From Trypanosoma brucei (taxonomy: Eukaryota): DNA of 64,000 nt. Below the pieces are notes generated by a model. It had not been told where the DNA came from. It ran no database searches and saw nothing but the letters and a program-made list of their open reading frames with translations. Position numbers and translations under genes: made by a program. The stretch spans positions 576,001-640,000 of the forward strand of contig CP000068.1 of assembly GCA_000002445.1 (NCBI GenBank). The letters run 5' to 3'. Each line of letters starts with the position of its first letter. Positions within the stretch are counted from its first letter, which is position 1. Shown here in pieces: positions 40,011 to 64,000 of this stretch.

Positions 40011-40805
40011 ATGACGCAATCGCAATCGCAAGGACATCCACGGGTTGGGCCTGCGCCCCTCTGTATCGATTACCCCACGCAACAGCCCCTTTGCCCAGAG
40101 TTTACGTATACCACTGATATCATCGCGTTAATGGCGCCACCTCGCATAGCCGCTAAGTTTTCACCATGTTTTCGCAAATACAGTTGGGACCCGTATGCGG
40201 TGCTGCTCACAGATCACGATTTAGAACGTGTAAAGAAATCATACAGGCGTGCAACGGCACCTCCCGCCATCGCCTCGTCACCAACGCGGCAACCCCCTCA
40301 GCAAAATCCTGCTGATATGGATATCAATGATAGTCACCATAATCACAATATTGATCATTCGCCATCACGGCTGCCACAGCTTTGCCAACAACAACAACAA
40401 CAACAGGAACAGCAACAACAGGAACAGCAGGAGCAGGAGCAAAGCCTACAACAGCAACATCAACAACTGAAACTACAGCAACAGCAACAGCAGGAGCAAC
40501 AGCAACTAAAGCAGCAAAGCCTCCAACAACAACAACAACAACAACACCAACAGCAGCAGCAGCGACTGAAACGACAATCATTACAACAACATCAACATTA
40601 TCATCAACATCATCATCGTCGATATCACCCGTATGCTCAACTGCATCACGGCGGTGGCCATCAGAGCCGCGGGGTGCATCATCCGTCATGGCATAACCGA
40701 CAGCCGGTGACTTGGAGGGCAATGGGACCCAATCAAGATTCTGAATTCAAATCTGCAGGAGGGCGTTCAGCTGCTCGAGGTTCCAGCGCCCGCTTCAGTC
40801 GCTAA
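40011..40805 (+). CDS. Gln-rich low-complexity protein (about 264 aa), hypothetical
   Basis: The track ORF 39726..40805 starts in low-complexity DNA. The plausible ATG is at 40011 (MTQSQSQ). It contains a KYSWDPY motif, then about 70 aa of poly-Q/QQE/QQL encoded by CAA/CAG repeats at about 40385..40580, and an H-rich tail. Confidence 0.5.
   Translation: MTQSQSQGHPRVGPAPLCIDYPTQQPLCPEFTYTTDIIALMAPPRIAAKFSPCFRKYSWDPYAVLLTDHDLERVKKSYRRATAPPAIASSPTRQPPQQNPADMDINDSHHNHNIDHSPSRLPQLCQQQQQQQEQQQQEQQEQEQSLQQQHQQLKLQQQQQQEQQQLKQQSLQQQQQQQHQQQQQRLKRQSLQQHQHYHQHHHRRYHPYAQLHHGGGHQSRGVHHPSWHNRQPVTWRAMGPNQDSEFKSAGGRSAARGSSARFSR
40385..40580 (+). repeat. Imperfect coding (CAA/CAG)n repeat encoding poly-Q
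   Basis: caacaacaacaacaacaggaacagcaacaacag...caacaacaacaacaacaacaccaacagcagcagcag, lying within the 40011..40805 CDS. Confidence 0.85.
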
Positions 40806-45075: not shown

Positions 45076-46161
45076 ATGCGCCCCACCGGAGTACGCTGTC
45101 TTGCTTCACCCCTCAGCTTAATGAGAGTTACCGGAACCCCCAACACCGGCCCCCGTGTGTTGTCGCCTGATGGTACGAAATTTTCATGGGATCCCTACAG
45201 CGGTGCATCCGTTGATGGAAGTGAAGTTTTCACCCAGTCACCTCATCTCGCCGCGCAGTTCCCCGGTCACGCGTCTCCTATTCAACTCCCTCCGCCCAAT
45301 GTGGCGTCGGATGGTGTCTCTTTTGCATCGACACTTAATTGGCAATCTCAAGGGGATGGCGGAGCAGCATATGATTCCTCAGTTGTTGGGTACTGGGAAG
45401 AAACCGGTCCCAACCGTGGCGCACTGCGACTTGGTTCCGATGAACAACAACAACAGCAACAGCAACAACATCAGTTATATCGGACAGGCCCACTCGCGCA
45501 AACGTTCTTCCAGACGACCGGCAGCGGTGCACCTCCCTTCGACAACGCCGTTGTTACGCATGGTGATGCTAACTTTAATTCAGGTTTTGGTGTGGTGGCA
45601 TCGCCGCATCGCCCATCATCGCGAGCGGGACGTTACGGCACTTCACGTGGTGTTTCTTTATCCGCCTCTCGAGGAAGATCTTTTGAATCCACTCCATTAT
45701 GGGGCCACGGGCAATCCGGAGCCGCAGAGAGAAAGCTTCCATTTAGACGTATGATCCCTCCGCCCGTCCCTTATGAACTTGCATTGCGTCAACTCTCCCG
45801 TTCGGGTCTTGCCGATCCCGAAAGGGTTCTCGAAGGAATTCTTCGTCACTGGCACAGGTCTACACAAGTTGCAGTCGGTGTACTTCGTAGCGAAGCTGCT
45901 TCTTCAGTTGAGGAAAGTTGCCCGTCCCCTCCTTCAGGAAATGACCGCGAAGCAATAGTCGAATGGGTGACACGTTGCGAGGGATGGTGGCAACAGAATT
46001 TTGGAACCCAACCCCGCAGCGGTGCTGACCGGCAAAATGCGGCTCATACGTTTAATGGAAATCGGGGACACAGATCCAATGATGGAAGGCGTCCTCATAC
46101 ATCAGGGGCTGCAAGTAGGAATAATCATGCATTCGCCGGCATGAACGGAAGAAGGGGGTGA
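45076..46161 (+). CDS. Pro/Ser/Gly-rich protein with a short poly-Q (about 361 aa), hypothetical
   Basis: Track start 45052 is TTG; the first ATG is at 45076 (MRPTGVRCL). It contains KFSWDPY (compare KYSWDPY in the upstream gene) and a poly-Q (EQQQQQQQQHQ). It is an isolated gene surrounded by more than 4 kb of low-complexity DNA on each side. Coordinates are ±1. Confidence 0.5.
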   Translation: MRPTGVRCLASPLSLMRVTGTPNTGPRVLSPDGTKFSWDPYSGASVDGSEVFTQSPHLAAQFPGHASPIQLPPPNVASDGVSFASTLNWQSQGDGGAAYDSSVVGYWEETGPNRGALRLGSDEQQQQQQQQHQLYRTGPLAQTFFQTTGSGAPPFDNAVVTHGDANFNSGFGVVASPHRPSSRAGRYGTSRGVSLSASRGRSFESTPLWGHGQSGAAERKLPFRRMIPPPVPYELALRQLSRSGLADPERVLEGILRHWHRSTQVAVGVLRSEAASSVEESCPSPPSGNDREAIVEWVTRCEGWWQQNFGTQPRSGADRQNAAHTFNGNRGHRSNDGRRPHTSGAASRNNHAFAGMNGRRG

Positions 46162-46199
46162 GAACAGAAGATTAAAAATGAAAAAGAAAAAGAAAAAAA

Positions 46200-49100
46200 A
46201 GGGGGGAGAATCAACAAGGTGGACATGTTGATTTCCCCCCCCCTTTTTTTTTCTTTTTCTTTTTTTGTTCTTCTTTTTCGACATGTGTCTGTTGTGCCCC
46301 TTCCTTCTATTCTCTCTTCACTCCACGCCTCCCCTCTCCACACACACATATATATATATAATATAATATATGATATATATATATATATATACATTTCTCC
46401 GCACCGGCTTTTTGTCGTGTGTTTATTTTTCATTTTTCTCTTTTTATTTAATTTCCTTTGTGAAGTTTCAACCAAAACAACACCAAACCATTTAAAAAGA
46501 AAAAAGATTTTTCTACCTTTTTTTGTTTTAACCTTGCGCGTGTGTCTTTTCCATTTTGGTTCTACCTGTACCTGTTGGTTCGTTTTTTTTTTTCTTTCCA
46601 CCTTTTAGACACTTTGGCGGATAATGATCTTCAGTGCTAAAATTGAAAATAACAGGAGTTGATCGAAAGTCTGATTTTTGTTTTCATTTTTTAAAAAATA
46701 TATTTTTGATATATTTCCCCTCCTTTTTTTAAAAAAGAAAAAGATGTCAGATAAGTGGGATAGAGGAACGACGGAGATAAATATAAATAAATATATATAA
46801 ATATATTAATACATGTGTTTCAACATATATATATATATATATTTACATGTACTTGTTTGTTTATATGTATTTATGCGCATAACAATAGCAGCGGAAGTGC
46901 GCTCGAGTGTGTAACTAGATGTTGTGATGGGAAAGAGAAAGGGGAAGAAGGGTGGGGGAAAAAAAGAAAGAAAGAAAAAACAGCGATCAATAAAGTTAAT
47001 AATAATTCCGCTAAGGGTTTACTCACAGGTGGCGTGTGTACGCAACCTGGGTGATGCAAGTGAAGAGGAGAAATTAATAAAATAAATTAATAAATTTATA
47101 AATATATAAATATATAAACATGTATGTATATATGTATGTATGTTTTCGACTGGGTTAGAGTAGATAAAGTGGATAAAACGGGAAAAGGTGAAAAAAAAAA
47201 ATACTGGATGACGAAGTGAAGAAGTGGAAGACTTGTTTTGTTTTTTTTTGTTTGTTTGTTTTATATCAACCATAATTTTGTTTCTTTTTTCATTTTCAAT
47301 CTGTTAGGTCAAATTAGGATGTTTTGTTTCTTCATTAGTGAAATATGTTTACTTATTTCATTTTCGTTTGTATGATCGCCTGTTTGTTTTCCATTTTGTT
47401 TTTGTTTTGGAAAAAAAAACTTTTGGTGGCGAGTTATATATTTCATATATTTTTATACTCTTTTACTACACTTCGTTTTTTTTTTCTTTGGGTGGAGGCC
47501 GCGTTTGTGTTTCACAGCAGCAAAAAAAAAAAAAAAGAATTCAATACCAAGAGCGATATAAAGTATATATATTATATACATATATATATATTATATTTTA
47601 TATTTTATATGTGTATATATGTGTGTGTGTGTGGATATGTGTGTGGATGCGTTGGGGGTTTTCCTTTTTTTGGGAGTGGTGTGTTTGTGTGTGTGTGTGG
47701 GAGAGAGAGAGAGAAAAAAAAAAATAAATAAATGGAAAATTAGGAAAAAGTGCAGGAGATTCTGTCGACTCTTTTCTAAGAAAAAAAAAATATATTCACA
47801 AGAAAGAAAAGAGAAAAAGTAAAAGATGAGGGAACAGTCCCTCTTTTTGTTTGTTTATTTTTCTTACTTTCTCTTTTTTTTTTTCATGATCTTCCTTCCC
47901 TTTTGGTTACAATCATCTTCCGTTTTTACCTCTTTTTTTAAAAAAAATTTTCCTTCTCTACTTTTTTTGGCGTCCCGCACGTCTGTCTGAGATTTCCCAT
48001 TAATTGTCCATTTAATCAATTTTTTTTAATAAAAAAAAGCGTTTTTTTTTCACTTTTTAGTAATAATAATTATTATTATTTTGTCTTTTTTTTCTTTTTC
48101 TTTTTCCTGGCTTCTTCCCATCCTTTTATTATTACTACTATTATTATTGTTATTGTTATTACCATTATTATTATTATTGTTATATTATTACCATTATTAG
48201 CATTTTTATGGTTATTATTATTATTATTATTATGTTCATTACAACACTCTTCCCCCCCCCCATATCCTCTCTCTTTTTTTTTTCCCCTCCCTCCCTCTTT
48301 CTTCTCCTCCTCCTTCCCTTTCTTTTTTTTTTCATCTCGACTTATTTTGTTACGAGATTTTTTGTTTTTGTTTTGTTTTTAATCCTTTTGGTTTTCACTC
48401 CCCAAATTAGGGCGGTTACGTAAAAAAAAAAACAAAATTTTTTTTTTCTTTTTATTTCCCCCTTTTTTGTTTTTTTTTTGGGTTTCTCTTTTCTTTTGTT
48501 TCTTTGTTGTTGTTTTTTTGTATTTTTCTTCTTATGAGGAGCGAAAAGGGCAGGGGAGAGGATTAAGGGGGAAAATAGGAAGAAGAAAAAATAAAAATAA
48601 AGAAACGAAACAAAAGGAAAGAAAATTAATAAATGGATAGATGAAAATAATCAACAACGATTTTTTTTTTTCCCCCTCCCCTTCCTAACAAAAAAAGAAA
48701 AAGGGGGTGCGGATTATTGTAATGACGACAGCGATAATAATCGCAATAAAAAGAATAAAATGTATAAATATATATATATATATATGTCTAAGCGCTCACG
48801 TTCGCAGTGTATCCCGTGATAATTTTACCTAAAAGAAGGTACGTTAAATAGGAGGAAAAGAAACAAACGAACATACACACACGCAAAAAACAAATAACAA
48901 ATAAGAAACAAACGAAAAGAGAAAAAGCGGAAATAATGAATGATAATACTTCTTGAGTTTGGCTTGTGTTGTGTGGTGCCTCACTTGTCAAAACACGACA
49001 AAACAAAGCAAAGAACTGTAAAAAACAAAAAAAAAGAAAAGAAAAGAAAAGAAGAACGGAAGAGGCGCGGTATAACAATGAAGAGCAAACGGATGTGGTT

Positions 49101-51859
49101 TGTTTTTTTTTTTTTGTGTGTGTGTGTTTGTTTGCCGCTGCTTCCCACGTTTCTTTATCTTTTTTTTTTAGAGGTAATAATAGTGTTGTTTTTGTTGTTG
49201 TTGTTGTTTTTTTTAATGCGAGAAAAGCGGAAGGAAAATTAGGAAGGAATGCGTTTAATTTCTTTTTTTAAAAAAAAAAAATAATAATAATCGTCATTAT
49301 TAATTTTTTTTGTCCCCGATGATTCCCATCCGTCACCATTTTTTTTTCTTTCCTTTTTTCTTTTTTTTTTTTGTTTATGTATTATTCGATTCGGTAAGTG
49401 CACAAAAAGACACCTTCGGGAACCGAAACCCTTAGTGGTAACCTGTTGTGGATTTTCCTTTTTTTTTCTTTTTTTTTTTGAAAGGAAAAGACAAAAATAA
49501 AAATAAAGGACAGAGCGGTGATTAAGTGAGCGATTAAAAAAAAAAAATAGAAGAAAAATATATACGAAGACATAGGAAAGAAACAAACATATATATATTA
49601 ATATGTTATATTTATATTATATTTATATATTATACAAGTTTCAATATGTATTCCAATCCTAAACAAGAGATGATAATGCACACACCGAAACGCAGAAACG
49701 GGTGCAATAATAATAAAAATAAAAGTAAAATAACAATAATAATAATAATAATGGTGGTGGTGATGGTGATGATTATGGAAATTGTTGTAAGACATTTATT
49801 ATTACAATAATTATTATGATCATCACAAGGCCCAATGAAGGGAGGGGGAAAAAAAAAGAAATAAAGTGAAACTTATAAAAACTCATTCCTTCCTATTCGA
49901 TCTTCCTACGAACATCTTTCAACGTAAGTGATAAAATTTGAGAAGTGAAAAAAAAACGAAAAGGAGACGCCAGTTAACACTTTCATGAAGTGGAGTTACT
50001 ATCTTGTTGTTACGAACCCGTGTTTTGTTTTTCCTCTTTCCTTCTCTATCTCTCTTTATTTTTATTTTTGTAACAAAACAGAAATAAATAAATAAGTGAG
50101 GTTTTTTAAATTTTAATTTTATTCATTGATGGATATATTTATATATTTATTTATATATGTTTATATTTATTTTTATTTTTCTCCCCCTTTCTTCCATTTC
50201 TTGAATTAGCAGCGGTTCCCACAAATACAAATACAAATACACCTCAACCTTAAATGATTATTTGGTGATGGTGATGATGATTAGAGTGGTACGAGTGACA
50301 CAACAACAACAAAAAAGAAAAAAAAGAAAAACACATAACATGACATAACATAAAATAAAATAAAATGCAGAAAAGGAAAAAGAAAAAGAATGCAAAGATA
50401 GAAAAGAAATAAAGCGAAGTGGCCGCCACTTTTGTTATCGATAAACGGAACCAATGCAAAAGCACAGGGTGAAAGGGACAGGAAAAAAAAAAAGGGAAAA
50501 GCGAAAACGAAAAAGGAAAAAAAAAAGTGACTAAAGGTATGTTTTTACATATTTCTCTGTATAGGAACTTATGTCGCGAATCGCCTGAAGAAAAAAAAAA
50601 GGGGCTAAAGAAAAATAGAAAGAAAGAACACAAAATGAACGAGGGAAATGAAAAGGTTTTTTTTTAAAAAAAAAGAAGCAGCAATCCGCTTCACTGTCAT
50701 CAGCTTTTTTTTTGTTTCTATTATTATTATTATTATTATTATGTTGTCTTTTACTGTTGTTGTTGTTGTTTCTTTCCCGTTTCTCCTACCTTATTTTCCT
50801 GGTCGTCGCTGATGCTGGAAATTCAAGAAAACACACACACAATTGAAAAAAAAAAAGCAAAAGCAATTAAATCAAAGGTGGTCACGGTTTCGCCAGGGTG
50901 ATGATCATATTTACAATAATTTTATCTTAGAAAGCTCTGGTGGTTAAATACAAGATGGAAGAGGGGATGGGAAAAAAAAAAAAGGAATACCGTGAACATA
51001 TATTACAGAGACCGGCTACTTGTGTAAATAAAAAGTGAAAAAAAAATCTTTTTTTTTTGGGGGGGGGTGGAGGGAGGGGGTTTCTCCCTATATTTATTTA
51101 TATTTGATATTTTTGTACCTTAAGATGCGGTATCGGTTGGGAGAATGGAGAGAGTTGGTGGGGAAAAAAATTGGGTCAAACATCAGAAAATGGAATGTGG
51201 GAAATTCGTATCAAACACTTAAGCGAAATTATCCAAATTTAACAAAGAAAAAAGGGAAAGTACTTTTTATAAATTTGTGATAGTACAAATGTTAACATGA
51301 ATAATTAATGAACCATAAACAAATGAATTTTAAATTCATTGGTGTTTGTACTTATATATATCTATATATTTACGGGTTTGCCATGTAGGCACTTTCTTGA
51401 GTTGAAAGGATGAAATTTCAGGGGTGGGGAGAAACAGCCGTTAAGGAGGAGTAAATAAAATGAATGAAAACAAAAACAGATGTATATAAACGTGCGTGTA
51501 AGCATAGCTGCATATTTATATTTGTGTGTTTTTGTTTTGTTTAAGTTCCTCCCCCTTTTTTGGCGGCGTACACCACGTAATTTTTCTCTTTTCCTCCGAT
51601 TTGTGTTGTGCGTGCGTATGTATGTGTATGTGTATGTGTGTGGTGGGGAGCAAAGCAAACGGAGGAGACGGGGAAATGGAAGGAAAATATTTAAAAAAAA
51701 AAGAAAAGACAAAGTAGAAGTGAGAGAAAGTAAAGAAACATAAATATAATGACACACCACCTTCCCATCTACCGGCTCCGTTTGAATTCTTTCAACTTTT
51801 CCATCCCTCGTTATTTTCAGGGAGCAGCTGTTGTTATCATTGTTATTACCTGTGATTGA

Positions 51860-51893
<34 letters not shown>

Positions 51894-52950
51894 GATGTTA
51901 TTCGTGTTCCCCTCCCTTTCTGTCCCACTTTCCCTCCTCTCTCTCTTTTTTTTTTTTTACCTCCGGTATTTCTGGTTTTCCGCTTATGTTTTTTCTTTCG
52001 AATTTCACTAAAGTAAACCACAACATCACAGTTATTTGATGTTGAACACCACCACCACCCCTTCCAAAAAAAAAAAAAAAAATCGAAAGCGGAGATAATG
52101 ACGATGAATGCGAGGAGAAGGTGTGATCGACGTTGCGATGGAAATGAATAGGAAAAAAAAAGGGGAACAATGATGTTAAGGAAAAAAAGCAGAAGAGAAA
52201 GAAAATGATGTCCTTCAGAGTGAAAACAACAGCAATAGTGACGATATGATAATAATTAACAAAAACAAGGATGGTGATGGCAATGATGATGTGAGAGAAA
52301 AGGAGAGAGAAAGAGTAGTGGAAATAAAGCGAGAGCCCGTGTACGAAAAAGAAGAGAAAAATTATATATGTATGCGAGAATATGTGCCTGTTTTCCCCCT
52401 ACAAGCTTTTTTTCCTTCTGCGCTTATCACTATTATTCATTTTTTTTATTTTTGCGCCATGGTGGTAGCGGATTTTAGTTAATGAAACGGGAAAAGAATA
52501 TATTGTTGTTTCTTCCGCTCCACCGACCTTACTTTTTTTTCATTTTTTTAAATTATTTTTGAAAATGCCATCGTTCGTTCTTTGATTAATCCGTCTTTTT
52601 TCCCCCGTCGTTTCGTTTGTCTTGTTTTGTTTTTCACTCGGTTTCTGTTTAACTTATTTCGTAGTGCAGGGTGAGGAGGTGGTCTGGGCCAATGAATAAT
52701 AATGACCATGCTAATGATAATAACGACAATACCAATTGGGGCAGTGGAACGCCGCTCCGGGAACATATAGCGAAGGACGAGGGCGGATAAGCGCAAGCAG
52801 AAGCAAAACTAGGGAAGGAACGTGGCGAGGCGGGCATATTCAAAAAAAACACATGAGAGTGCGCACAATGCCGTTTGCACGCATGAGGATACATGCATAT
52901 ATTTTTATATGTATGTTGTTTCACTTAAAATATATATTTACATATACGTA
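46200..52950. other. Gene-free low-complexity AT-rich region downstream of the last + strand gene
   Basis: No ORF with credible composition on either strand. It consists of alternating homopurine blocks (for example 48,540–49,080; 50,290–50,560; 52,140–52,340) and homopyrimidine blocks (46,230–46,600; 47,830–48,520; 49,080–49,460). These are interspersed with (ATT)n, (TA)n, poly(A) and poly(T) runs. Confidence 0.7.
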
Positions 52951-54049
52951 TATATTTTTAAAAGAATGCGTGTGTCCCGTCATCTCGTCGTCACACGTAG
53001 CCACCGGCTCGTGGACATGCGAGTGAAAACGGGTGCGGATGAGCATGCATGTGCGGTTGTGCGCGCGGGCGCGACTGCGTATGAATGTTTGCGACCGCCT
53101 GAACATGTTCGCAAATGTGTGTCCGGTGCCGGCGCACATTTGTGTGATATGATCATGGGTGATGGTGCGCGAGCAAAAGCATTCATCCAGCAACATGTAT
53201 GGTGCGTCGGTGGAAATACCGAGTTCCTCCAAGGGAACGTGAGCAGGGTCTCATGTTTTTTGAGGAAACCGGCCCGCCGGCGCCCGCGCTCCGGCGGGTG
53301 CACACTCGCATCATGGGATCACGCTTTAGTGTGCGTTTTTGAATATGCCTGCCACAACCCCGATCCAGTAGTTTTGTCTTTTCCTAAGCGTTGTAGCGTG
53401 CGCGGGGCGGGTCCCGTCATATACACGAGGACGTGCGCCTTCGCGGATGGAAATGGGTGGGGGTTTTGTGTGTGTCGTTTCCTTTAGCGATTAGCATTTG
53501 GTGGGCTTCGCTGAGGATGCAAAACGTCAGCACACCCCCCGCTTATTCCTATCTTGGAATGAGAAGAAAAGCACGCGCGCGTTTCGATCGCGGCCCTTTG
53601 GCGGTTGTTTGCCCTGTATCGGCCCTTCGATGCGATCGTGTCTTGTTCCTTTCACGAAGCACGCCGCTCATCCCCCCTTTGAAATTTGGGCTCAAATCGC
53701 CGTGTCGGTTTCCGGTTCGCGGTAGTCCCTTCTTTTCCCACCCCAAGAGGAGTCCCCAAGCTTTTTACCCCTTTTTAAAATTAAAATAATAATTTTCGGC
53801 CCTGGCGATCCCCGACCCTCGACTTCAGTAATCACCGAGTCCCATCGACCTGCTTTCTTCCACATCAAATTTTGAGCACCCCCCCCCTTTCTGCTGCTTT
53901 TTGCTGATACGCCCCCCCGGCCGCCCGCCGCTTTCTCCTCCGTCTCTTAACATCACCCCCCTCCCCCCATTCCTCCTTTTCTTTCATAGCATAGGTTATG
54001 CCCGCCCGGCCCCGCGCCCTTCCGCCACCACCCCCCCCCCGAACCGGCG

Positions 54050-56562
54050 CCCGTCACGGCCGCCCGACTTGCCACGGAAACATTCCTTCGCAACAGACGT
54101 CTCCCCCCCCCCCCCAACCCGGACACCCGACGGCGACCCCATTGAAACGCGCCCCTCTCGTTCTTACCGGTGAACAAGCTGTCCCCGCTCGGCACTCAAC
54201 CCTTCTGTTGCCCCACCTGCTTTTCTTTCACCTTTCTCGCCAAAAAATAAAATAAAATAAGGGAAAGCCACGCCGCGCGGTCGCGACGAGCGCGTTTTCA
54301 AAAGAAAAAAAGATTAGCTCAGGCGGAACCGTATCTCTCGTTTCGGAGAGGTTCTTTTTTATCATCTTTTAGAGAAAATTCGCCCAACGCCCGAAATCAT
54401 GGCGGGTTTCAATATCGACGGAAGGGTCGGACACCCCGGCCGGCTCTCGGGTCCGCCGGGGCGTGTACCGGTGCCTCAAAGTGGCCACCCGAACCCGGTG
54501 GCGGTTTATTGGCAGGCCGCGCCCTTCCCCGTGACCGCGGCATTCGCTGCCCCCCAACTCGTCGGGCCACCCCCCGTCTTTTTTTACCGAAGGGGGGCAA
54601 ACCACCCGGGTCCCGCCCCCCGACCACCAGCACCACCCCCTCGCCGTCATTTGGGAGTCGGCCCGAGCCCGCCGCCGCCTCGCTTTCGCGAAAACCGCAA
54701 TTTGTTTTCGGCGGGGGAGGTGGTTGGTTTCATTCGGTTGGCCCGGCGATGGGATGAAAAGGTAGCGGGGAGAGGGGCCGCCCATCACGCCCGCGGACCT
54801 CCGAATTTCGAATGGCCGCCGGAACCCGAGGACCCCTGGAAGGTTTTGGAGGATTGGTCGGAAACCCGAGCACGGTGGTGGCGCACCAGTCGGGCGGATC
54901 ATCGGGCACCGCGGCGCCGCCGGCCCTCAGGACCCCGCAGCAAAAAAAAAAATTTAAGACCTTTGGAAAAGGGGGTCGAGGTGCCTCGTCACTGATCCCC
55001 CCTCGCCCACGGTGTTTGAAAAAGCGACGACGCTGCCCGCCCACCCGCATTTTTTAAAAACGCGGTTCTTTTCGAAAACTCTAACATATCCTTTCCTGTT
55101 CGAAAAAACGTGCCGCTGTTCACAAACAGCCGCCACCCCTTTGCTACTCCAAAAAGCGTGAAGCTTTTTTGAATACAGGATATTGTCCCTTTTCCCTTCC
55201 CTTCGAAACAAATGGTGACTGTTCAGCACCGGTCCCCCGCTGCCCGTGTTCGGAAGGGGGCCTCGCCTTGCCTTACCTTGCCTCACCCAGCCCCACCTTG
55301 CCTCACCCAGCCCCACCTTGCCTTGCCTTTAAACGGAATACAAAAAACCTCATTCCCCCCGCACAAAAGTTCGCCCCTGGCGCGGTTAAGAGGTCCGGCG
55401 CAACGCTCCGCTTGCGTGGAGGGGGGCGAAGGTGGCCCGGGTGGAACCCGTCAGATTTTTTCCTTAGGAATTAGCCACGGGGCGGCATCGCCTTTGGGCC
55501 CGGCTACTCGCCGCCGGCAAGGAGAGTGGCCCCGCGACACACCCCCGATGAGGGCGGCTGCGATGACCGCCACGCCCTGGCGACGCCGGCCACCTCCACG
55601 TGGTGCCAGGGTCCAGTACCCCGCATCATCGGGGGAAGCCAAGAGCCAGCAGAGTTCCTTTCATGGGGAACACTGCTGTGCTCTGGCCTCGGCATCATAC
55701 AGCACAGGGATCAGCAGCGTCTTGCTGGGACACCGTTTTTCATTTGTCGGTCCCTGGGTCCGTGCCAGCGTGCCATCAGCAGTATCATCCGCACTAAGAT
55801 GCTGCTGTCCGGTGATGTGGAACTCCAAAAAAAAGGATTGCCAATTGACATCTTTTGGAGAGTCCGGGGTGGGAGGCCTCTCGCCCCATCTGCTGTATTC
55901 CGTTCAAATGCGGAAATACAACAAAAAATTATAGAGGGTGTGTTAGGATGAATGAAAAAGGGAGACTCTGCCACAGTCGCCAGACCGATAGCATCTCAGG
56001 GCTCTACGGTGATGGCTGATGGCCGCGCCAGTGGGGGGAAACTCTCACGAAGGCACGAAGAAAATTTCAAAAAAAAAAAAATGACCGTCACGGTGTTTGC
56101 GGCCGCCAACACGCCCGCGCATGGGTTTTTGGCTGCGTTTTCAAGGAGGATGAAGGGACACACGAGTTGGACGGCGGGGGATCAGGAACCCGCGGCGCCG
56201 GAAAAATGCGTTCGAATGTTTTGTTTGAGGGCGCCAAAGCACGCCTCGGGGGGTCGGGATGGCGGACGCCGATTTGCCCACTGCATCGGCGCTATGGGGA
56301 CGCGTGCTGGGGGCCCTAAGGCGGGTGAAAGTTCTGGGGAAACGGAAAGTTTGGCCTTCCGAAAAATGAAAGACGGCGGCGCCGGCGCCCCGGGTTTGCC
56401 ATAAGAAAACATCGAACCTTTATTTTTCTTTTAACCCCCGCATCATTGAGGGCGTTTCGCCGCACGACACCACCGGGGCGGCGCCGTGTCGGACAAAAAC
56501 CGGGCTAAGGGGGCGAGGCACCCCCATCGCTTTCGTCGAGACCCGGGAACCCCCCTTCCGTA
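54050..56562. repeat. Repeat copy 1 (2507-bp period; carries a 19-bp internal duplication and a C13 tract)
   Basis: Copy 1 contains cctcacccagccccaccttg twice (55,290–55,330). It occurs once in copies 2 and 3. About 10 point differences separate it from copies 2 and 3. Confidence 0.8.
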
Positions 56563-59054
56563 CGGCGCCGCCCGACTTGCCACGGAAACATTCCTTCGCA
56601 ACAGACGTCTCCCCCCCCCCCCAACCCGGACACCCGACGGCGACCCCATTGAAACGCGCCCCTCTCGTTCTTACCGGTGAACAAGCTGTCCCCGCTCGGC
56701 ACTCAACCCTTCTGTTGCCCCACCTGCTTTTCTTTCACCTTTCTCGCCAAAAAATAAAATAAAATAAGGGAAAGCCACGCCGCGCGGTCGCGACGAGCGC
56801 GTTTTCAAAAGAAAAAAAGATTAGCTCAGGCGGAACCGTATCTCTCGTTTCGGAGAGGTTCTTTTTTATCATCTTTTAGAGAAAATTCGCCCAACGCCCG
56901 AAATCATGGCGGGTTTCAATATCGACGGAAGGGTCGGACACCCCGGCCGGCTCTCGGGTCCGCCGGGGCGTGTACCGGTGCCTCAAAGTGGCCACCCGAA
57001 CCCGGTGGCGGTTTATTGGCAGGCCGCGCCCTTCCCCGTGACCGCGGCATTCGCTGCCCCCCAACTCGTCGGGCCACCCCCCGTCTTTTTTTACCGAAGG
57101 GGGGCAAACCACCCGGGTCCCGCCCCCCGACCACCAGCACCACCCCCTCGCCGTCATTTGGGAGTCGGCCCGAGCCCGCCGCCGCCTCGCTTTCGCGAAA
57201 ACCGCAATTTGTTTTCGGCGGGGGAGGTGGTTGGTTTCATTCGGTTGGCCCGGCGATGGGATGAAAAGGTAGCGGGGAGAGGGGCCGCCCATCACGCCCG
57301 CGGACCTCCGAATTTCGAATGGCCGCCGGAACCCGAGGACCCCTGGAAGGTTTTGGAGGATTGGTCGGAAACCCGAGCACGGTGGTGGCGCACCAGTCGG
57401 GCGGATCATCGGGCACCGCGGCGCCGCCGGCCCTCAGGACCCCGCAGCAAAAAAAAAAATTTAAGACCTTTGGAAAAGGGGGTCGAGGTGCCTCGTCACT
57501 GATCCCCCCTCGCCCACGGTGTTTGAAAAAGCGACGACGCTGCCCGCCCACCCGCATTTTTTAAAAACGCGGTTCTTTTCGAAAACTCTAACATATCCTT
57601 TCCTGTTCGAAAAAACGTGCCGCTGTTCACAAACAGCCGCCACCCCTTTGCTACTCCAAAAAGCGTGAAGCTTTTTTGAATACAGGATATTGTCCCTTTT
57701 CCCTTCCCTTCGAAACAAATGGTGACTGTTCAGCGCCGGTCCCCCGCTGCCCGTGTTCGGAAGGGGGCCTCGCCTTGCCTTACCTTGCCTCACCCAGCCC
57801 CACCTTGCCTTGCCTTTAAACGGAATACAAAAAACCTCATTCCCCCCGCACAAAAGTTCGCCCCTGGCGCGGTTAAGAGGTCCGGCGCAACGCTCCGCTT
57901 GCGTGGAGGGGGGCGAAGGTGGCCCGGGTGGAACCCGTCAGATTTTTTCCTTAGGAATTAGCCACGGGGCGGCATCGCCTTTGGGCCCGGCTACTCGCCG
58001 CCGGCAAGGAGAGTGGCCCCGCGACACACCCCCGATGAGGGCGGCTGCGATGACCGCCACGCCCTGGCGGCGCCGGCCACCTCCACGTGGTGCCAGGGTC
58101 CAGTACCCCGCATCATCGGGGGAAGCCAAGAGCCAGCAGAGTTCCTTTCATGGGGAACACTGCTGTGCTCTGGCCTCGGCATCATACAGCACAGGGATCA
58201 ACGGCGCCTTGCTGGGACACCGTTTTTCATTTGTCGGTCCCTGGGCACGTGCCAGCGTGCCATCAGCAGTATCATCCGCGCTAAGATGCTGCTGTCCGGT
58301 GATGTGGAACTCCAAAAAAAAAGGATTGCCAATTGACATCTTTTGGAGAGTCCGGGGTGGGAGGCTTCTCGCCCCATCTGCTGTATTCCGTTCAACTGCG
58401 GAAATACAACAAAAAATTATAGAGGGTGTGTTAGGATGAATGAAAAAGGGAGACTCTGCCACAGTCGCCAGACCGATAGCATCTCAGGGCTCTACGGTGA
58501 TGGCTGATGGCCGCGCCAGTGGGGGGAAACTCTCACGAAGGCACGAAGAAAATTTCAAAAAAAAAAAATGACCGCCACGGTGTTTGCGGCCGCCAACACG
58601 CCCGCGCATGGGTTTTTGGCTGCGTTTTCAAGGAGGATGAAGGGACACACGAGTTGGACGGCGGGGGATCAGGAACCCGCGGCGCCGGAAAAATGCGTTC
58701 GAATGTTTTGTTTGAGGGCGCCAAAGCACGCCTCGGGGGGTCGGGATGGCGGACGCCGATTTGCCCACTGCATCGGCGCTATGGGGACGCGTGCTGGGGG
58801 CCCTAAGGCGGGTGAAAGTTCTGGGGAAACGGAAAGTTTGGCCTTCCGAAAAATGAAAGACGGCGGCGCCGGCGCCCCGGGTTTGCCATAAGAAAACATC
58901 GAACCTTTATTTTTCTTTTAACCCCCGCATCATTGAGGGCGTTTCGCCGCACGACACCACCGGGGCGGCGCCGTGTCGGACAAAAACCGGGCTAAGGGGG
59001 CGAGGCACCCCCATCGCTTTCGTCGAGACCCGGGAACCCCCCTTCCGTACGGCG
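56563..59054. repeat. Repeat copy 2 (2488–2492 bp)
   Basis: Full-length copy. It differs from copy 3 at only a few positions (for example catacagc vs cgtacagc; ggcgcctt vs ggcgtctt). Confidence 0.8.
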
Positions 59055-61467
59055 CCGCCCGACTTGCCACGGAAACATTCCTTCGCAACAGACGTCTCCC
59101 CCCCCCCCCCAACCCGGACACCCGACGGCGACCCCATTGAAACGCGCCCCTCTCGTTCTTACCGGTGAACAAGCTGTCCCCGCTCGGCACTCAACCCTTC
59201 TGTTGCCCCACCTGCTTTTCTTTCACCTTTCTCGCCAAAAAATAAAATAAAATAAGGGAAAGCCACGCCGCGCGGTCGCGACGAGCGCGTTTTCAAAAGA
59301 AAAAAAGATTAGCTCAGGCGGAACCGTATCTCTCGTTTCGGAGAGGTTCTTTTTTATCATCTTTTAGAGAAAATTCGCCCAACGCCCGAAATCATGGCGG
59401 GTTTCAATATCGACGGAAGGGTCGGACACCCCGGCCGGCTCTCGGGTCCGCCGGGGCGTGTACCGGTGCCTCAAAGTGGCCACCCGAACCCGGTGGCGGT
59501 TTATTGGCAGGCCGCGCCCTTCCCCGTGACCGCGGCATTCGCTGCCCCCCAACTCGTCGGGCCACCCCCCGTCTTTTTTTACCGAAGGGGGGCAAACCAC
59601 CCGGGTCCCGCCCCCCGACCACCAGCACCACCCCCTCGCCGTCATTTGGGAGTCGGCCCGAGCCCGCCGCCGCCTCGCTTTCGCGAAAACCGCAATTTGT
59701 TTTCGGCGGGGGAGGTGGTTGGTTTCATTCGGTTGGCCCGGCGATGGGATGAAAAGGTAGCGGGGAGAGGGGCCGCCCATCACGCCCGCGGACCTCCGAA
59801 TTTCGAATGGCCGCCGGAACCCGAGGACCCCTGGAAGGTTTTGGAGGATTGGTCGGAAACCCGAGCACGGTGGTGGCGCACCAGTCGGGCGGATCATCGG
59901 GCACCGCGGCGCCGCCGGCCCTCAGGACCCCGCAGCAAAAAAAAAAATTTAAGACCTTTGGAAAAGGGGGTCGAGGTGCCTCGTCACTGATCCCCCCTCG
60001 CCCACGGTGTTTGAAAAAGCGACGACGCTGCCCGCCCACCCGCATTTTTTAAAAACGCGGTTCTTTTCGAAAACTCTAACATATCCTTTCCTGTTCGAAA
60101 AAACGTGCCGCTGTTCACAAACAGCCGCCACCCCTTTGCTACTCCAAAAAGCGTGAAGCTTTTTTGAATACAGGATATTGTCCCTTTTCCCTTCCCTTCG
60201 AAACAAATGGTGACTGTTCAGCGCCGGTCCCCCGCTGCCCGTGTTCGGAAGGGGGCCTCGCCTTGCCTTACCTTGCCTCACCCAGCCCCACCTTGCCTTG
60301 CCTTTAAACGGAATACAAAAAACCTCATTCCCCCCGCACAAAAGTTCGCCCCTGGCGCGGTTAAGAGGTCCGGCGCAACGCTCCGCTTGCGTGGAGGGGG
60401 GCGAAGGTGGCCCGGGTGGAACCCGTCAGATTTTTTCCTTAGGAATTAGCCACGGGGCGGCATCGCCTTTGGGCCCGGCTACTCGCCGCCGGCAAGGAGA
60501 GTGGCCCCGCGACACACCCCCGATGAGGGCGGCTGCGATGACCGCCACGCCCTGGCGGCGCCGGCCACCTCCACGTGGTGCCAGGGTCCAGTACCCCGCA
60601 TCATCGGGGGAAGCCAAGAGCCAGCAGAGTTCCTTTCATGGGGAACACTGCTGTGCTCTGGCCTCGGCATCGTACAGCACAGGGATCAACGGCGTCTTGC
60701 TGGGACACCGTTTTTCATTTGTCGGTCCCTGGGCACGTGCCAGCGTGCCATCAGCAGTATCATCCGCGCTAAGATGCTGCTGTCCGGTGATGTGGAACTC
60801 CAAAAAAAAAGGATTGCCAATTGACATCTTTTGGAGAGTCCGGGGTGGGAGGCTTCTCGCCCCATCTGCTGTATTCCGTTCAACTGCGGAAATACAACAA
60901 AAAATTATAGAGGGTGTGTTAGGATGAATGAAAAAGGGAGACTCTGCCACAGTCGCCAGACCGATAGCATCTCAGGGCTCTACGGTGATGGCTGATGGCC
61001 GCGCCAGTGGGGGGAAACTCTCACGAAGGCACGAAGAAAATTTCAAAAAAAAAAAATGACCGCCACGGTGTTTGCGGCCGCCAACACGCCCGCGCATGGG
61101 TTTTTGGCTGCGTTTTCAAGGAGGATGAAGGGACACACGAGTTGGACGGCGGGGGATCAGGAACCCGCGGCGCCGGAAAAATGCGTTCGAATGTTTTGTT
61201 TGAGGGCGCCAAAGCACGCCTCGGGGGGTCGGGATGGCGGACGCCGATTTGCCCACTGCATCGGCGCTATGGGGACGCGTGCTGGGGGCCCTAAGGCGGG
61301 TGAAAGTTCTGGGGAAACGGAAAGTTTGGCCTTCCGAAAAATGAAAGACGGCGGCGCCGGCGCCCCGGGTTTGCCATAAGAAAACATCGAACCTTTATTT
61401 TTCTTTTAACCCCCGCATCATTGAGGGCGTTTCGCCGCACGACACCACCGGGGCGGCGCCGTGTCGG
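59055..61467. repeat. Repeat copy 3 (lacks the last ~75 bp of the unit)
   Basis: Homology to the copy-2 junction sequence (acaaaaaccgggctaaggggg...) is lost after ...ggcgccgtgtcgg at about 61467. Confidence 0.8.
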
Positions 61468-64000
61468 TGGTGAAATGTTAGTGGGGCGTTTAGCGCGTGC
61501 CAAGTGGGGTGAGGTTATCCAATTTGGAAAGGTGCATACCTGGTGGGGTGGGGTTGGCGATAGGTAGTCCTCGGAGGGTCTCGTTGTCCGCATCAGTCGT
61601 TGCGTATGATGGTCTTTTTGCGCAATTTCATTGTGAAATTGTCGTCGTTGGTCTTGTTTATGGAATTGCTGAAGTGTTCGGTAAATGCCCTAATTGTCTC
61701 CTGTTGTTGGTGGTGGTGGGGAGGGAAGATTCGACTCTCCCTTTTTCCCAAGCCCCCACAATAATTTACGACGGATGATGTAATCTTTTACTGGAAGTGG
61801 GGCTGTCGCCGAAAGCTTTGTCCTAACACCCCTCAATTTGTTCGCATTCCCTCTTGTCCTCGCCTTGCTTCTTGCGGTGGTGTGTGTTATGTAGGTTTCT
61901 GAACGCTACGGTTTCAAACAGCCGCATTTCCGTTCAAACATGTTTAGTGTCGGATAATTTCCGACACCGCATATCTGTTTCCTTAGCTTCTCCACTCTAA
62001 ATGTCCGGTTTAAAATATACTTTTATACTTAGCCATTGAACTTCTCTGCTGCGTTTCTGATTCTTCATGCTCCTCCACTGGTTTGTGGCCTTTGGTAGTG
62101 GGAATTTTTGAGGGAAAGTAACACCAACTCCCGTAACGTCGTCGCTATGGAATTCAGGCCTGTGGTTGCTATGTCGCTGGATTAGCGCTACGGTAACGAA
62201 AAAGCACGATGCCCCATTTTTTAATCCACATTGCTCAAATCTTCCCACATGCTCACGGGGATGTGAAGGAGACGGACATAGAAGACTTTTTATCGTTCTT
62301 TCCCAAATTTTAACCAAATTTCCTCCTCCACCAATTATTGAAGATCCTTTGGAAGAGACCCCCCTCCAGCCCTTTACATCACCCAATTTTCTTGGAAACT
62401 TCTTGCTTGATTCTCTGACGAGGAGCATCCTCTACCGAGATAAGTTTCGCCTCCTCCATTGCCAACAAACACAAGCGTCCCGGGGACTATCGGAAAGCGT
62501 TGATATTCTTGTTGGATTAATAAAGCTGAAAAAAAAAAGCCCAACCTTCCTGCGACAAGCCCTGCTGTCCCTACGGCCGTGTATCCAATGTATCTCAACC
62601 TTTTCAACTCTCCTCTTCACTTTATTCCCCACGCGCTTCAAAAATATCGTAATTCCTTTGTGAAAGGCTCGGATATTAACGTCCTCCTCCTTTCTTCTAA
62701 CCCTCAAAATTCTCAACTCCATCAACTTGACAGTACCTTCACTCTCTCACTTTCTCTGTTTCGCATTTCGTTTCCGCATGGGTGAAGGCGTACAGCGATT
62801 TCGACCCTTTTTTGCCGCACCAAAAAGTGCGTGTTCACCGTCGCTAAAACTCAACCTTTCGCCGTCTACGGCCACAGAACTTCCAAAGAGAAGGAACACA
62901 GCCACCGACACTCTCGTATCCGCATATGAAATACGCGTGTTTCCGCGGAGTCGAGGGGAAAAGCCGTGACAGCCATTTTAGGGAGTACGCGAAGGGTGGG
63001 GCGGCTTCAACGAGAATGGATATTCTCCTTTGTTGACTGTTATTTTCTGCTTATTGGGCAACACCGGGGTGGAAGTGATGACGATTGATGGGAGAAGGGA
63101 AAGTGATACGAACAGGAACGTTTATATTTAACTTTCCCCGAATAACATGGCTAGGAAGATGGGCTGAACCGCGTCGATGAGACGTACCAATCGGGGCGCC
63201 AGGAGACCCACGTAGAAATGCGAGCATGGATGCGGGTGTGACCGTGGTGTGGGGCTTTTGCTCTGGGGAGGTGAAGGAACTGCGCGAAACTGCCAGGAGT
63301 TCGCCTCGTCCTCCCAGCTGTTGCCTGCGTGAGGGAAGTTTTTATGGCCAACTGAAATGGAGAGTCATAACCACATTCTATTTGGCGAATGAGCACAATA
63401 ATGGCAGGGATTCGTTTAGGACAACAGCGGTGACGAGAGCGGGGAGCATACTCACGGCGCGAATGTTAGTTGGGAAGCTTCAATATTCTATGGAAGAACG
63501 GCAAAAAGTACAGTTGTCTGTTTTCTGCCAACAAAGGTTCACCACCAGCCCCACCGCACAACTAATGATGCGAGCAAGGTGTGTGCAAATACAAAATAGG
63601 AACTGAACGGTGGGAATTACACCATTTTGCGCATGGACTATTGGTGAACACTTGAAAACATCATTTGGGGACAACCCTCTACCGTTACAAAGTCTAAAGG
63701 GGAAAAAGCAAAGAAACGCAACGCGACCGCGTTGTGACACAAGTTCCATGTGCGTTGAAAGTTGAATCTGGAAAATCGGCTCTGTCAAGCACCGGTGACG
63801 AGCACACGGCGATGGAAGTAAAGGAACTGGCAACCATTCGAAGTCGGAAATGTCAAGGTTCACTTGTTCTCTCTTGCATGTTTCGCGGTGAGCGGGCTCC
63901 AAGGAGAAATGAGACTATTGGACGCAACGTATTAGCCAACCTTGAAGGTGAGAGACGCACAACAACGGGGAACATTGGGACATTTTCAGTTCGCACACCC

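What the first reader, a model, noticed from the sequence alone, without database searches (positions are those of the whole stretch)
46162..64000. About 18 kb protein-gene desert ending the + strand gene cluster; candidate termination, strand-switch or centromeric domain
Upstream, sixteen genes in 46 kb all lie on the + strand. After the stop at 46161 there are no credible ORFs on either strand for the rest of the window. The tail comprises 6.8 kb of extreme low-complexity AT-rich DNA, an 8.5-kb GC-rich island and 2.5 kb of unique ORF-poor sequence. In trypanosomatids such long non-coding stretches at the ends of polycistrons are where transcription terminates or initiates and where centromeres map. 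They are also where RNA polymerase III genes sit.
Basis: inference. Interest (0 to 1): 0.6.

Follow-up and report, generated by a model that had tools for sequence, protein, structure and literature searches.

The report
Convergent transcription-end zone with RIME repeats
The 18-kb gene-free tail is most of a roughly 19-kb region on Trypanosoma brucei chromosome 5 where two gene clusters run head-on and transcription should end; it is not the centromere, and its GC-rich island is a strain-variable tandem repeat that carries RIME retroposons, so it is an ordinary and largely already catalogued kind of feature.

Summary
After the stop at 46161 there is no credible protein gene. The three blocks exist: AT-rich 46162-52900, GC-rich 52950-61470, unique 61471-64000.

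The window is T. brucei TREU927 chromosome 5, and the last gene is Tb927.5.2000. In the collinear T. b. gambiense locus the next real genes lie on the minus strand. The first ends about 1.5 kb beyond the window edge. The tail is therefore a convergent strand-switch region of about 19.3 kb, where RNA polymerase II transcription is expected to terminate.

It is not the centromere. That maps between Tb927.5.600 and Tb927.5.610, and the tail has no long AT-rich tandem arrays. No tRNA or other known RNA genes were found.

The GC island holds 2.97 tandem copies of a 2.49-kb unit. Each unit is a 1.97-kb GC-rich sequence of unknown origin plus one 506-bp RIME retroposon. Each RIME has a Pr77 5' end, an A tail and a 12-bp target-site duplication. 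The same site is empty in another strain. Copy number varies from 1 to 3 among strains.

The one annotated ORF in the tail, Tb927.5.2010, is broken in two subspecies. This is a known kind of feature, of low interest.

The parts
45076..46161 (+). Tb927.5.2000, the last credible gene of the + strand cluster
   Evidence: Exact match to XP_844874.1 / AAZ11315.1. Divergent syntenic orthologues exist in T. vivax, T. cruzi and T. theileri.
46168..46279 (+). Near-perfect hairpin of about 110 nt (purine arm paired with pyrimidine arm), directly after the stop codon
   Evidence: Many sub-threshold microRNA-precursor (hairpin) models hit this spot. Folding gives -65.7 kcal/mol, z = -6.2, and 0 of 200 shuffles fold as well.
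46162..52900 (.). AT-rich, low-complexity, gene-free block. It has the same composition as the long intergenic stretches upstream.
   Evidence: 31.8% GC. Only micro- and minisatellites of up to about 170 bp. Divergence from gambiense is 1-2.2% substitutions plus many indels.
52909..53487 (+). Annotated ORF Tb927.5.2010 (192 aa); not a conserved gene
   Evidence: Identity to AAZ11316.1. Premature stop in gambiense and a 4-bp frameshift in L004. No Pfam hit. Codon score -0.024.
52950..54054 (.). Unique GC-rich left flank of the tandem array
   Evidence: 56% GC. About 3.3% substitutions against gambiense. The T. equiperdum OVI contig ends at about 54040.
54055..61470 (+). Tandem array of 2.97 copies of a 2.49-kb unit. 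Units start at about 54059, 56566 and 59054. The third copy lacks the last 95 bp or so.
   Evidence: Spacing 2507 and 2488 bp at 98-100% identity. Copies 2 and 3 differ at 3 positions. There is a single copy in L004 and at least 2 in gambiense.
55575..56080 (+). RIME retroposon, copy 1. Pr77 hallmark at 55575-55650, A-run at the 3' end, 12-bp target-site duplications at 55563-55574 and 56081-56092.
   Evidence: Alignment to the published L1Tc Pr77 sequence. The core motif occurs 3 times with 0 expected. Filled-site and empty-site junctions were read directly. The ORF is homologous to ingi N-termini.
58062..58567 (+). RIME retroposon, copy 2
   Evidence: Same tests as copy 1.
60550..61055 (+). 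RIME retroposon, copy 3, with a perfect 12-bp target-site duplication ATGACCGCCACG
56093..58049 (.). One full copy of the GC-rich host sequence between two RIMEs (about 1.97 kb including the 12-bp duplication at its right end); origin unknown
   Evidence: 60.7% GC. No internal repeat and no similarity to any flank or to the T. vivax, T. cruzi or T. theileri loci. No Pfam hit in six frames. No Rfam hit.
61471..64000 (.). Unique block that continues about 1.5 kb beyond the window to the stop codon of the first minus-strand gene. It may be the 3' untranslated region or downstream region of that gene.
   Evidence: 99.1-99.5% identical to gambiense without indels, as conserved as coding sequence. 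ORFs are within chance. In gambiense the 869-aa minus-strand gene ends at L008 12272, equivalent to window position about 65497.

Best explanation
The tail is the greater part of a convergent strand-switch region of about 19.3 kb on T. brucei chromosome 5. It lies between the + strand cluster ending in Tb927.5.2000 and a minus-strand cluster that ends in an 869-aa MutL-like gene, probably Tb927.5.2020.

RNA polymerase II complexes arriving from both sides are expected to terminate here. Leftover convergent read-through would give double-stranded RNA and small interfering RNAs.

The region is long for three reasons:
(i) about 6.8 kb of ordinary AT-rich intergenic or UTR-type DNA;
(ii) a T. brucei-group-specific GC-rich sequence of about 2 kb that received a RIME (or ingi) retroposon and was then tandemly amplified by unequal recombination, giving 3 copies in TREU927, at least 2 in gambiense and 1 in a T. 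b. equiperdum assembly;
(iii) about 4 kb of conserved unique sequence next to the minus-strand gene.

Shown: gene orientation in the orthologous gambiense locus, absence of genes, the RIME anatomy, and the copy-number variation.

Inferred: termination itself, its chromatin marks, and the order of the insertion and duplication events.
For: - Identity of the locus: exact protein matches to TREU927 chromosome 5 genes.
- Orientation: gambiense locus L008 is collinear with the window to its last base at 98.9% identity. It then carries genes of 869, 403, 326 and 368 aa, all on the minus strand.
- No credible ORFs in the tail.
- RIME features are listed under parts.
- Array structure and variation between strains.
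- Literature: all 49 convergent units surveyed in T. brucei give DCL2-dependent small RNAs. Chromosome 5 has one such unit at 630.6-639.8 kb, the only listed one in the expected coordinate range. Cohesin accumulates at convergent termination sites. Retroelements accumulate at strand-switch regions.
Against: - The right-hand genes were seen in T. b. gambiense, not in TREU927 itself. The window stops about 1.5 kb short of them.
- No RNA-seq, H3.V, H4.V or base J data could be consulted, so termination is inferred from orientation alone.
- The match to the published small-RNA unit CTU13 rests on approximate coordinates only.
- The 1.97-kb GC-rich host sequence is unexplained. A function of its own is not excluded.
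Confidence: 0.85

Rival explanations
1. It is a centromeric domain of chromosome 5.
For: It is a long gene-free strand-switch region with retroposons. A GC-rich, retroelement-bearing region of this kind of about 10 kb is what T. cruzi centromeres look like.
Against: The chromosome 5 centromeric 148-bp AT-rich array maps between Tb927.5.600 and Tb927.5.610. The tail has no tandem array with a period near 147 or 30 bp. T. brucei centromeres are GC-poor.
Confidence: 0.02
2. It is a head-to-tail boundary or merely a long UTR or intergenic stretch inside one + strand cluster, with + strand genes resuming to the right.
For: In T. vivax the gene after the Tb927.5.2000 orthologue is on the + strand, after a 6.3-kb gap.
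Against: In T. b. gambiense, which is 99% identical and collinear to the window edge, the next four credible genes are all on the minus strand. The only + strand ORFs there are ones the gambiense record itself labels 'hypothetical protein, unlikely'.
Confidence: 0.05
3. The GC-rich island is a functional unit in its own right, for example a long non-coding RNA locus, a replication origin, or a Pr77-driven promoter array, rather than passive repeat DNA.
For: Each unit carries an intact Pr77 with the CCACC...CGTG core element, which acts as an internal RNA polymerase II promoter in L1Tc. The island is present in all four T. brucei-group assemblies examined.
Against: Copy number varies from 1 to 3, and the RIME is absent from the single copy in one strain. 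The island diverges faster than its flanks, about 3% substitutions against 0.4-2.2%. This argues against sequence constraint. There is no structured-RNA match.
Confidence: 0.08

Closest known systems
Convergent strand-switch regions (transcription termination regions) of T. brucei
   Same: Two polycistronic gene clusters face each other across a gene-free interval. Retroposons are present. It is probably one of the 49 convergent units already surveyed for small RNAs.
   Different: At about 19 kb it is longer than the windows listed for most such units, which run 3-23 kb and mostly 6-12 kb. It has no tRNA genes. It holds a GC-rich tandem array.
TbRIME, the non-autonomous ingi/L1Tc-clade non-LTR retroposon
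   Same: The Pr77 5' hallmark, a length of about 500 bp, an A tail, a 12-bp target-site duplication, and the ingi leader ORF up to the 2A site followed by the internal deletion junction.
   Different: Three copies arose here by tandem duplication of the host sequence, not by three separate insertions. All three share the same target-site duplication.
T. cruzi centromeres (GC-rich strand-switch domains with degenerate retroelements)
   Same: A GC-rich island of about 8.5 kb, containing retroposons, in a strand-switch region.
   Different: Different species. The T. brucei chromosome 5 centromere maps elsewhere. There is no L1Tc, VIPER or DIRE coding remnant in the host sequence. No functional data exist for this locus.

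Membership tests
Convergent strand-switch / RNA polymerase II termination region | Left cluster on the + strand ends at the region | tested here: met
   Sixteen + strand genes end at 46161.
Convergent strand-switch / RNA polymerase II termination region | Next credible genes on the opposite strand, pointing inward | tested here: met
   Gambiense L008 carries minus-strand genes of 869, 403, 326 and 368 aa. The first stop codon is equivalent to window position about 65.5 kb. This extends to TREU927 by collinearity only.
Convergent strand-switch / RNA polymerase II termination region | H3.V, H4.V and base J enrichment; drop in RNA-seq coverage | not testable with these tools
   No chromatin or transcriptome data were available.
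Convergent strand-switch / RNA polymerase II termination region | DCL2-dependent small RNAs from both strands | tested here: inconclusive
   Published unit CTU13 on chromosome 5 (630.6-639.8 kb) has 2401 reads, falling to 1.1% of wild type without DCL2. Its identity with this locus rests on approximate coordinates.
T. brucei centromere | Maps to the topoisomerase II / kinetochore site of the chromosome | tested here: not met
   The chromosome 5 site is between Tb927.5.600 and Tb927.5.610. This locus is at Tb927.5.2000-2020.
T. brucei centromere | kb-scale AT-rich tandem array (units of about 147 bp or about 30 bp) | tested here: not met
   Tandem Repeats Finder reports only arrays of up to about 170 bp in total length.
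RNA polymerase III gene cluster at a strand-switch region | tRNA, snRNA, 5S or 7SL genes | tested here: not met
   No tRNA gene. No Rfam match at gathering score. Only hairpin noise at relaxed threshold.
TbRIME retroposon | Pr77 hallmark at the 5' end | tested here: met
   Positions 1-75 of the 77-nt L1Tc Pr77 align at 55575-55650 and twice more. The 29-nt core occurs 3 times with 0 expected.
TbRIME retroposon | About 0.5 kb long, with an A-rich tail and a target-site duplication of about 12 bp | tested here: met
   506 bp, A12-13 tail, ATGACCGCCACG on both sides.
TbRIME retroposon | Empty site at the same position in a related genome | tested here: met
   L004, and the last gambiense copy, read straight across the site with one copy of the 12-mer.
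TbRIME retroposon | ingi 5' leader joined to the ingi 3' end by an internal deletion | tested here: met
   The ORF matches ingi-type N-termini up to ...LLSGDVE. In P0037 and P0041 this continues with ENPGP. In P0054, a more distant relative, the equivalent GDVERNPGP is followed by a Pfam-confirmed endonuclease domain. The window instead follows the RIME-type junction also seen in P0036 and P0048. P0040 is named 'Tbingi protein' by its source.
[quoted passage not shown] | Remnants of the endonuclease or reverse-transcriptase ORF, and its own Pr77 | tested here: not met
   No Pfam hit at E<=1 in six frames. No tblastn hit outside the RIMEs. No further Pr77. This is a weak test, because no full-length ingi protein was available as a query.

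The most novel reading that the evidence does not exclude
The GC-rich, retroposon-bearing island in this unusually long convergent region may be the relic of an ancestral centromere of the T. cruzi/Leishmania type. It would have been inactivated when smaller ancestral chromosomes fused to form T. brucei chromosome 5.

A change of gene neighbour at exactly this point between T. brucei and T. vivax would fit a fusion or rearrangement joint.
Probability: 0.05. Interest if true: 0.7.

Novelty: already known. Interest (0 to 1): 0.2.

Why it matters
This settles what the gene desert is. It is a normal boundary between two transcription units in a reference trypanosome genome, not a centromere.

The result warns against reading GC-rich islands in T. 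brucei by analogy with T. cruzi centromeres. It also documents a small case of retroposon insertion followed by tandem amplification that varies between subspecies.

The only open point is where the 1.97-kb GC-rich host sequence came from.

Tried and rejected
- Rfam at gathering and relaxed thresholds, and ARAGORN: no RNA genes.
- Pfam on individual tail ORFs and on six-frame translations of the island: nothing.
- A concatenated query of tail ORFs against the large protein collection returned nothing. This null is void. The query contained the Tb927.5.2010 sequence, which is in the collection, and it was not found.
- A search with the T. vivax RING/LRR N-terminus also returned nothing, not even its own source protein. 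It is therefore uninformative.
- blastn and tblastx of the tail against the syntenic T. vivax, T. cruzi and T. theileri loci and against the upstream 46 kb: only low-complexity noise.
- Host unit against all flanks and against itself: no older copies.
- Pyrimidine-tract strand asymmetry and G-quadruplex motif counts gave no clear switch point.
- Rejected ideas: rRNA or spacer remnant, snoRNA cluster, spliced-leader or 5S array (no Rfam hits); RHS pseudogene (no Pfam hit); assembly artefact (the three copies differ from one another, and the junctions exist in independent assemblies).
Full report
**Where the window comes from.** Proteins encoded in the window are identical to annotated proteins of Trypanosoma brucei brucei TREU927 chromosome 5, a record of 1,608,198 bp. 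The ORF ending at 46161 is Tb927.5.2000 (XP_844874.1). A T. equiperdum OVI contig is collinear with the window at 98.8% identity. It ends at window position about 54040.

**Checking the observation.** They are 46162-52900 at 31.8% GC, 52950-61470 at 55-63% GC, and 61471-64000 at 47.9% GC. All long ORFs upstream are on the + strand, and the T. equiperdum numbering gives sixteen genes up to Tb927.5.2000.

- In the GC island and the right block, the longest ORFs are no longer than dinucleotide shuffles produce.
- In the AT block, a 297-codon open stretch exceeds the shuffles, but it is low-complexity sequence.
- Codon-usage scores of tail ORFs are -0.09 to +0.035. The training genes score 0.12-0.30 and two held-out real genes score 0.03-0.05, so this test is only weakly discriminating.
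- The reference annotation does contain one ORF in the tail, Tb927.5.2010 at 52909-53487. It carries a premature stop in T. b. gambiense and a 4-bp frameshift in a T. b. equiperdum assembly. It has no Pfam domain.

One correction is needed: the AT-rich block has the same composition as the long intergenic stretches at 33-35 and 41-45 kb, so it is not a distinct kind of domain.

**What lies to the right.** A 126-aa ORF at 63226-63603 is identical to a T. b. gambiense ORF that the record itself labels 'unlikely'. This allowed the gambiense chromosome 5 locus L008 to be fetched.

L008 aligns with the window up to its last base at 98.9% identity. It then carries four genes, all on the minus strand:
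- an 869-aa gene with a weak MutL C-terminal match;
- a 403-aa gene;
- a 326-aa gene;
- a 368-aa methyltransferase gene.

The stop codon of the first gene corresponds to window position about 65.5 kb. By collinearity, the desert spans about 19.3 kb and is a convergent strand-switch region. The gene numbers Tb927.5.2020 and Tb927.5.2030 (TbOxa1-3) fit the first two minus-strand genes. That assignment is inferred, not shown.

**Not a centromere and not an RNA polymerase III gene site.** Obado et al. place the chromosome 5 centromeric 148-bp AT-rich array between Tb927.5.600 and Tb927.5.610. Tandem Repeats Finder finds only short micro- and minisatellites in the tail. There are no tRNA genes and no Rfam matches at gathering score. 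At a relaxed threshold the only cluster of hits is a hairpin at 46168-46279.

**Anatomy of the GC island.** It contains 2.97 tandem copies of a 2.49-kb unit at 54055-61470. Copies 2 and 3 differ at 3 positions. Copy 1 differs from them by a 20-bp decamer-repeat indel, 2 substitutions in the host part, and 9 substitutions in the RIME part. The copies are distinguishable, so the array is not an assembly artefact.

**The RIME retroposons.** Inside each unit lies a 506-bp element, at 55575-56080, 58062-58567 and 60550-61055.
- It starts with the Pr77 hallmark of L1Tc/ingi-clade retroposons. The published 77-nt L1Tc sequence aligns over positions 1-75. The CCACC...CGTG core promoter element is intact.
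- A 29-nt core of Pr77 occurs exactly three times in the window, where none is expected by chance.
- It ends in A12-13.
- It is flanked by the 12-bp duplication ATGACCGCCACG.
- In the T. b. equiperdum assembly, and in the last gambiense copy, the site is empty and has a single 12-mer.
- Its ORF matches short proteins spread over many T. brucei chromosomes. One homologue, from T. grayi, is named 'Tbingi protein' by its source. Two homologues (P0037, P0041) continue past ...LLSGDVE into ENPGP. In a more distant homologue (P0054) the equivalent motif is followed by an endonuclease domain that Pfam confirms. The window instead shows the RIME-type deletion junction.

That ingi carries a 2A-like sequence just upstream of its endonuclease domain is stated in the literature. 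The exact ingi 2A peptide is from my own memory and is corroborated by P0037 and P0041. These elements are RIMEs.

**The host sequence.** The remaining 1.97 kb of each unit is 60.7% GC. Its origin is unknown. A very degenerate DIRE cannot be excluded, because no full-length ingi protein was available as a query.

**Variation between strains.** The T. b. equiperdum assembly has one unit without a RIME. Gambiense has at least two units, separated by an assembly gap, and the last one lacks a RIME. Upstream of the segment that matches the RIME 3' half, gambiense has C2H2 zinc-finger coding sequence. By established knowledge this is typical of the ingi 3' region, so gambiense probably carries an ingi where TREU927 has a RIME.

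Substitution divergence between TREU927 and gambiense:

| Segment | Substitutions |
|---|---|
| Coding sequence | 0.4-0.5% |
| AT-rich block | 1-2.2%, plus many indels |
| GC island | about 3% |
| 61471-64000 | 0.4-0.9% |

The island is the fastest-evolving part of the region. This argues against sequence-level constraint.

**How it most likely works.** By established knowledge of trypanosome gene expression (Siegel 2009 and later work, not re-tested here), RNA polymerase II terminates at convergent strand-switch regions marked by H3.V, H4.V and base J.

- All 49 convergent units surveyed yield DCL2-dependent small RNAs. The list includes one unit on chromosome 5 at 630.6-639.8 kb, which is probably this locus.
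- Cohesin accumulates at convergent termination sites.
- Retroelements accumulate in strand-switch regions.

The length of this region is explained by ordinary AT-rich spacer, a retroposon insertion, and unequal-crossover amplification of the GC-rich unit. Termination itself, and the order of these events, are inferences.

**Novelty.** Convergent regions and RIME elements are well known and annotated in this reference genome. I rate the finding as already known and of low interest. The most novel reading not excluded is that the island is a relic of an ancestral centromere of the T. cruzi type at a rearrangement joint. Two observations prompt it. The island resembles T. cruzi centromeres in GC content, size, retroposon content and strand-switch location. 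The gene neighbour changes at this point relative to T. vivax. I give this about 5%.

Noticed in passing
window 46168-46279: A near-perfect hairpin of about 110 nt lies directly after the Tb927.5.2000 stop codon. One arm is polypurine and the other polypyrimidine. Folding gives -65.7 kcal/mol with z = -6.2. It draws many sub-threshold microRNA-precursor hits.
   Followed up: partly
window 45076-46161; L005 13867-14946; L006 14575-15885 and 20683-22002; L007 17142-18380: Tb927.5.2000 is labelled 'T. brucei spp.-specific', yet it has divergent syntenic homologues in T. vivax, T. cruzi (two paralogues) and T. theileri. tblastn E-values are 7.8e-17 to 6.9e-7. The shared region is a C-terminal domain.
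   Followed up: partly
window 55575-56080 compared with 58062-58567: Between array copies 1 and 2, the RIME part has 9 substitutions in 506 bp, while the host part has 2 in about 1980 bp. Ectopic gene conversion by other genomic RIME or ingi copies is a possible cause.
   Followed up: no
window 61471-64000: This ORF-poor block is 99.1-99.5% identical to gambiense without indels. That is as conserved as coding sequence and far more than the adjacent GC island (about 97%). It may be a long 3' UTR of the minus-strand gene or a conserved non-coding element.
   Followed up: no
L008 4102-5580 (T. b. gambiense): Where TREU927 has the first array unit, gambiense has about 590 bp of unrelated sequence, then a 100-N gap, then C2H2 zinc-finger coding sequence running into the segment that matches the RIME 3' half. 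This suggests a full-length ingi, or a misassembly, at that spot.
   Followed up: partly
L005 14946-21281 (T. vivax): After the Tb927.5.2000 orthologue, T. vivax has a 6.3-kb gene-free gap and then a + strand RING/LRR gene. T. brucei has minus-strand genes at the equivalent place, so gene order changes at exactly this point.
   Followed up: no
window 40386-40561 (in the ORF 39726-40805): A CAA/CAG (polyglutamine) repeat lies inside the penultimate gene. The strains differ here by many in-frame indels: 23-75 gapped bases across the coding sequence.
   Followed up: no
window 55260-55323: A decamer repeat (GCCTCACCTT) is 20 bp longer in array copy 1 than in copies 2 and 3. This accounts for the 2507 versus 2488 bp spacing.
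   Followed up: yes
tool behaviour: Two searches of the large protein collection returned nothing, although sequences identical to part of the query are in that collection. Those null results should not be counted as evidence.
   Followed up: yes
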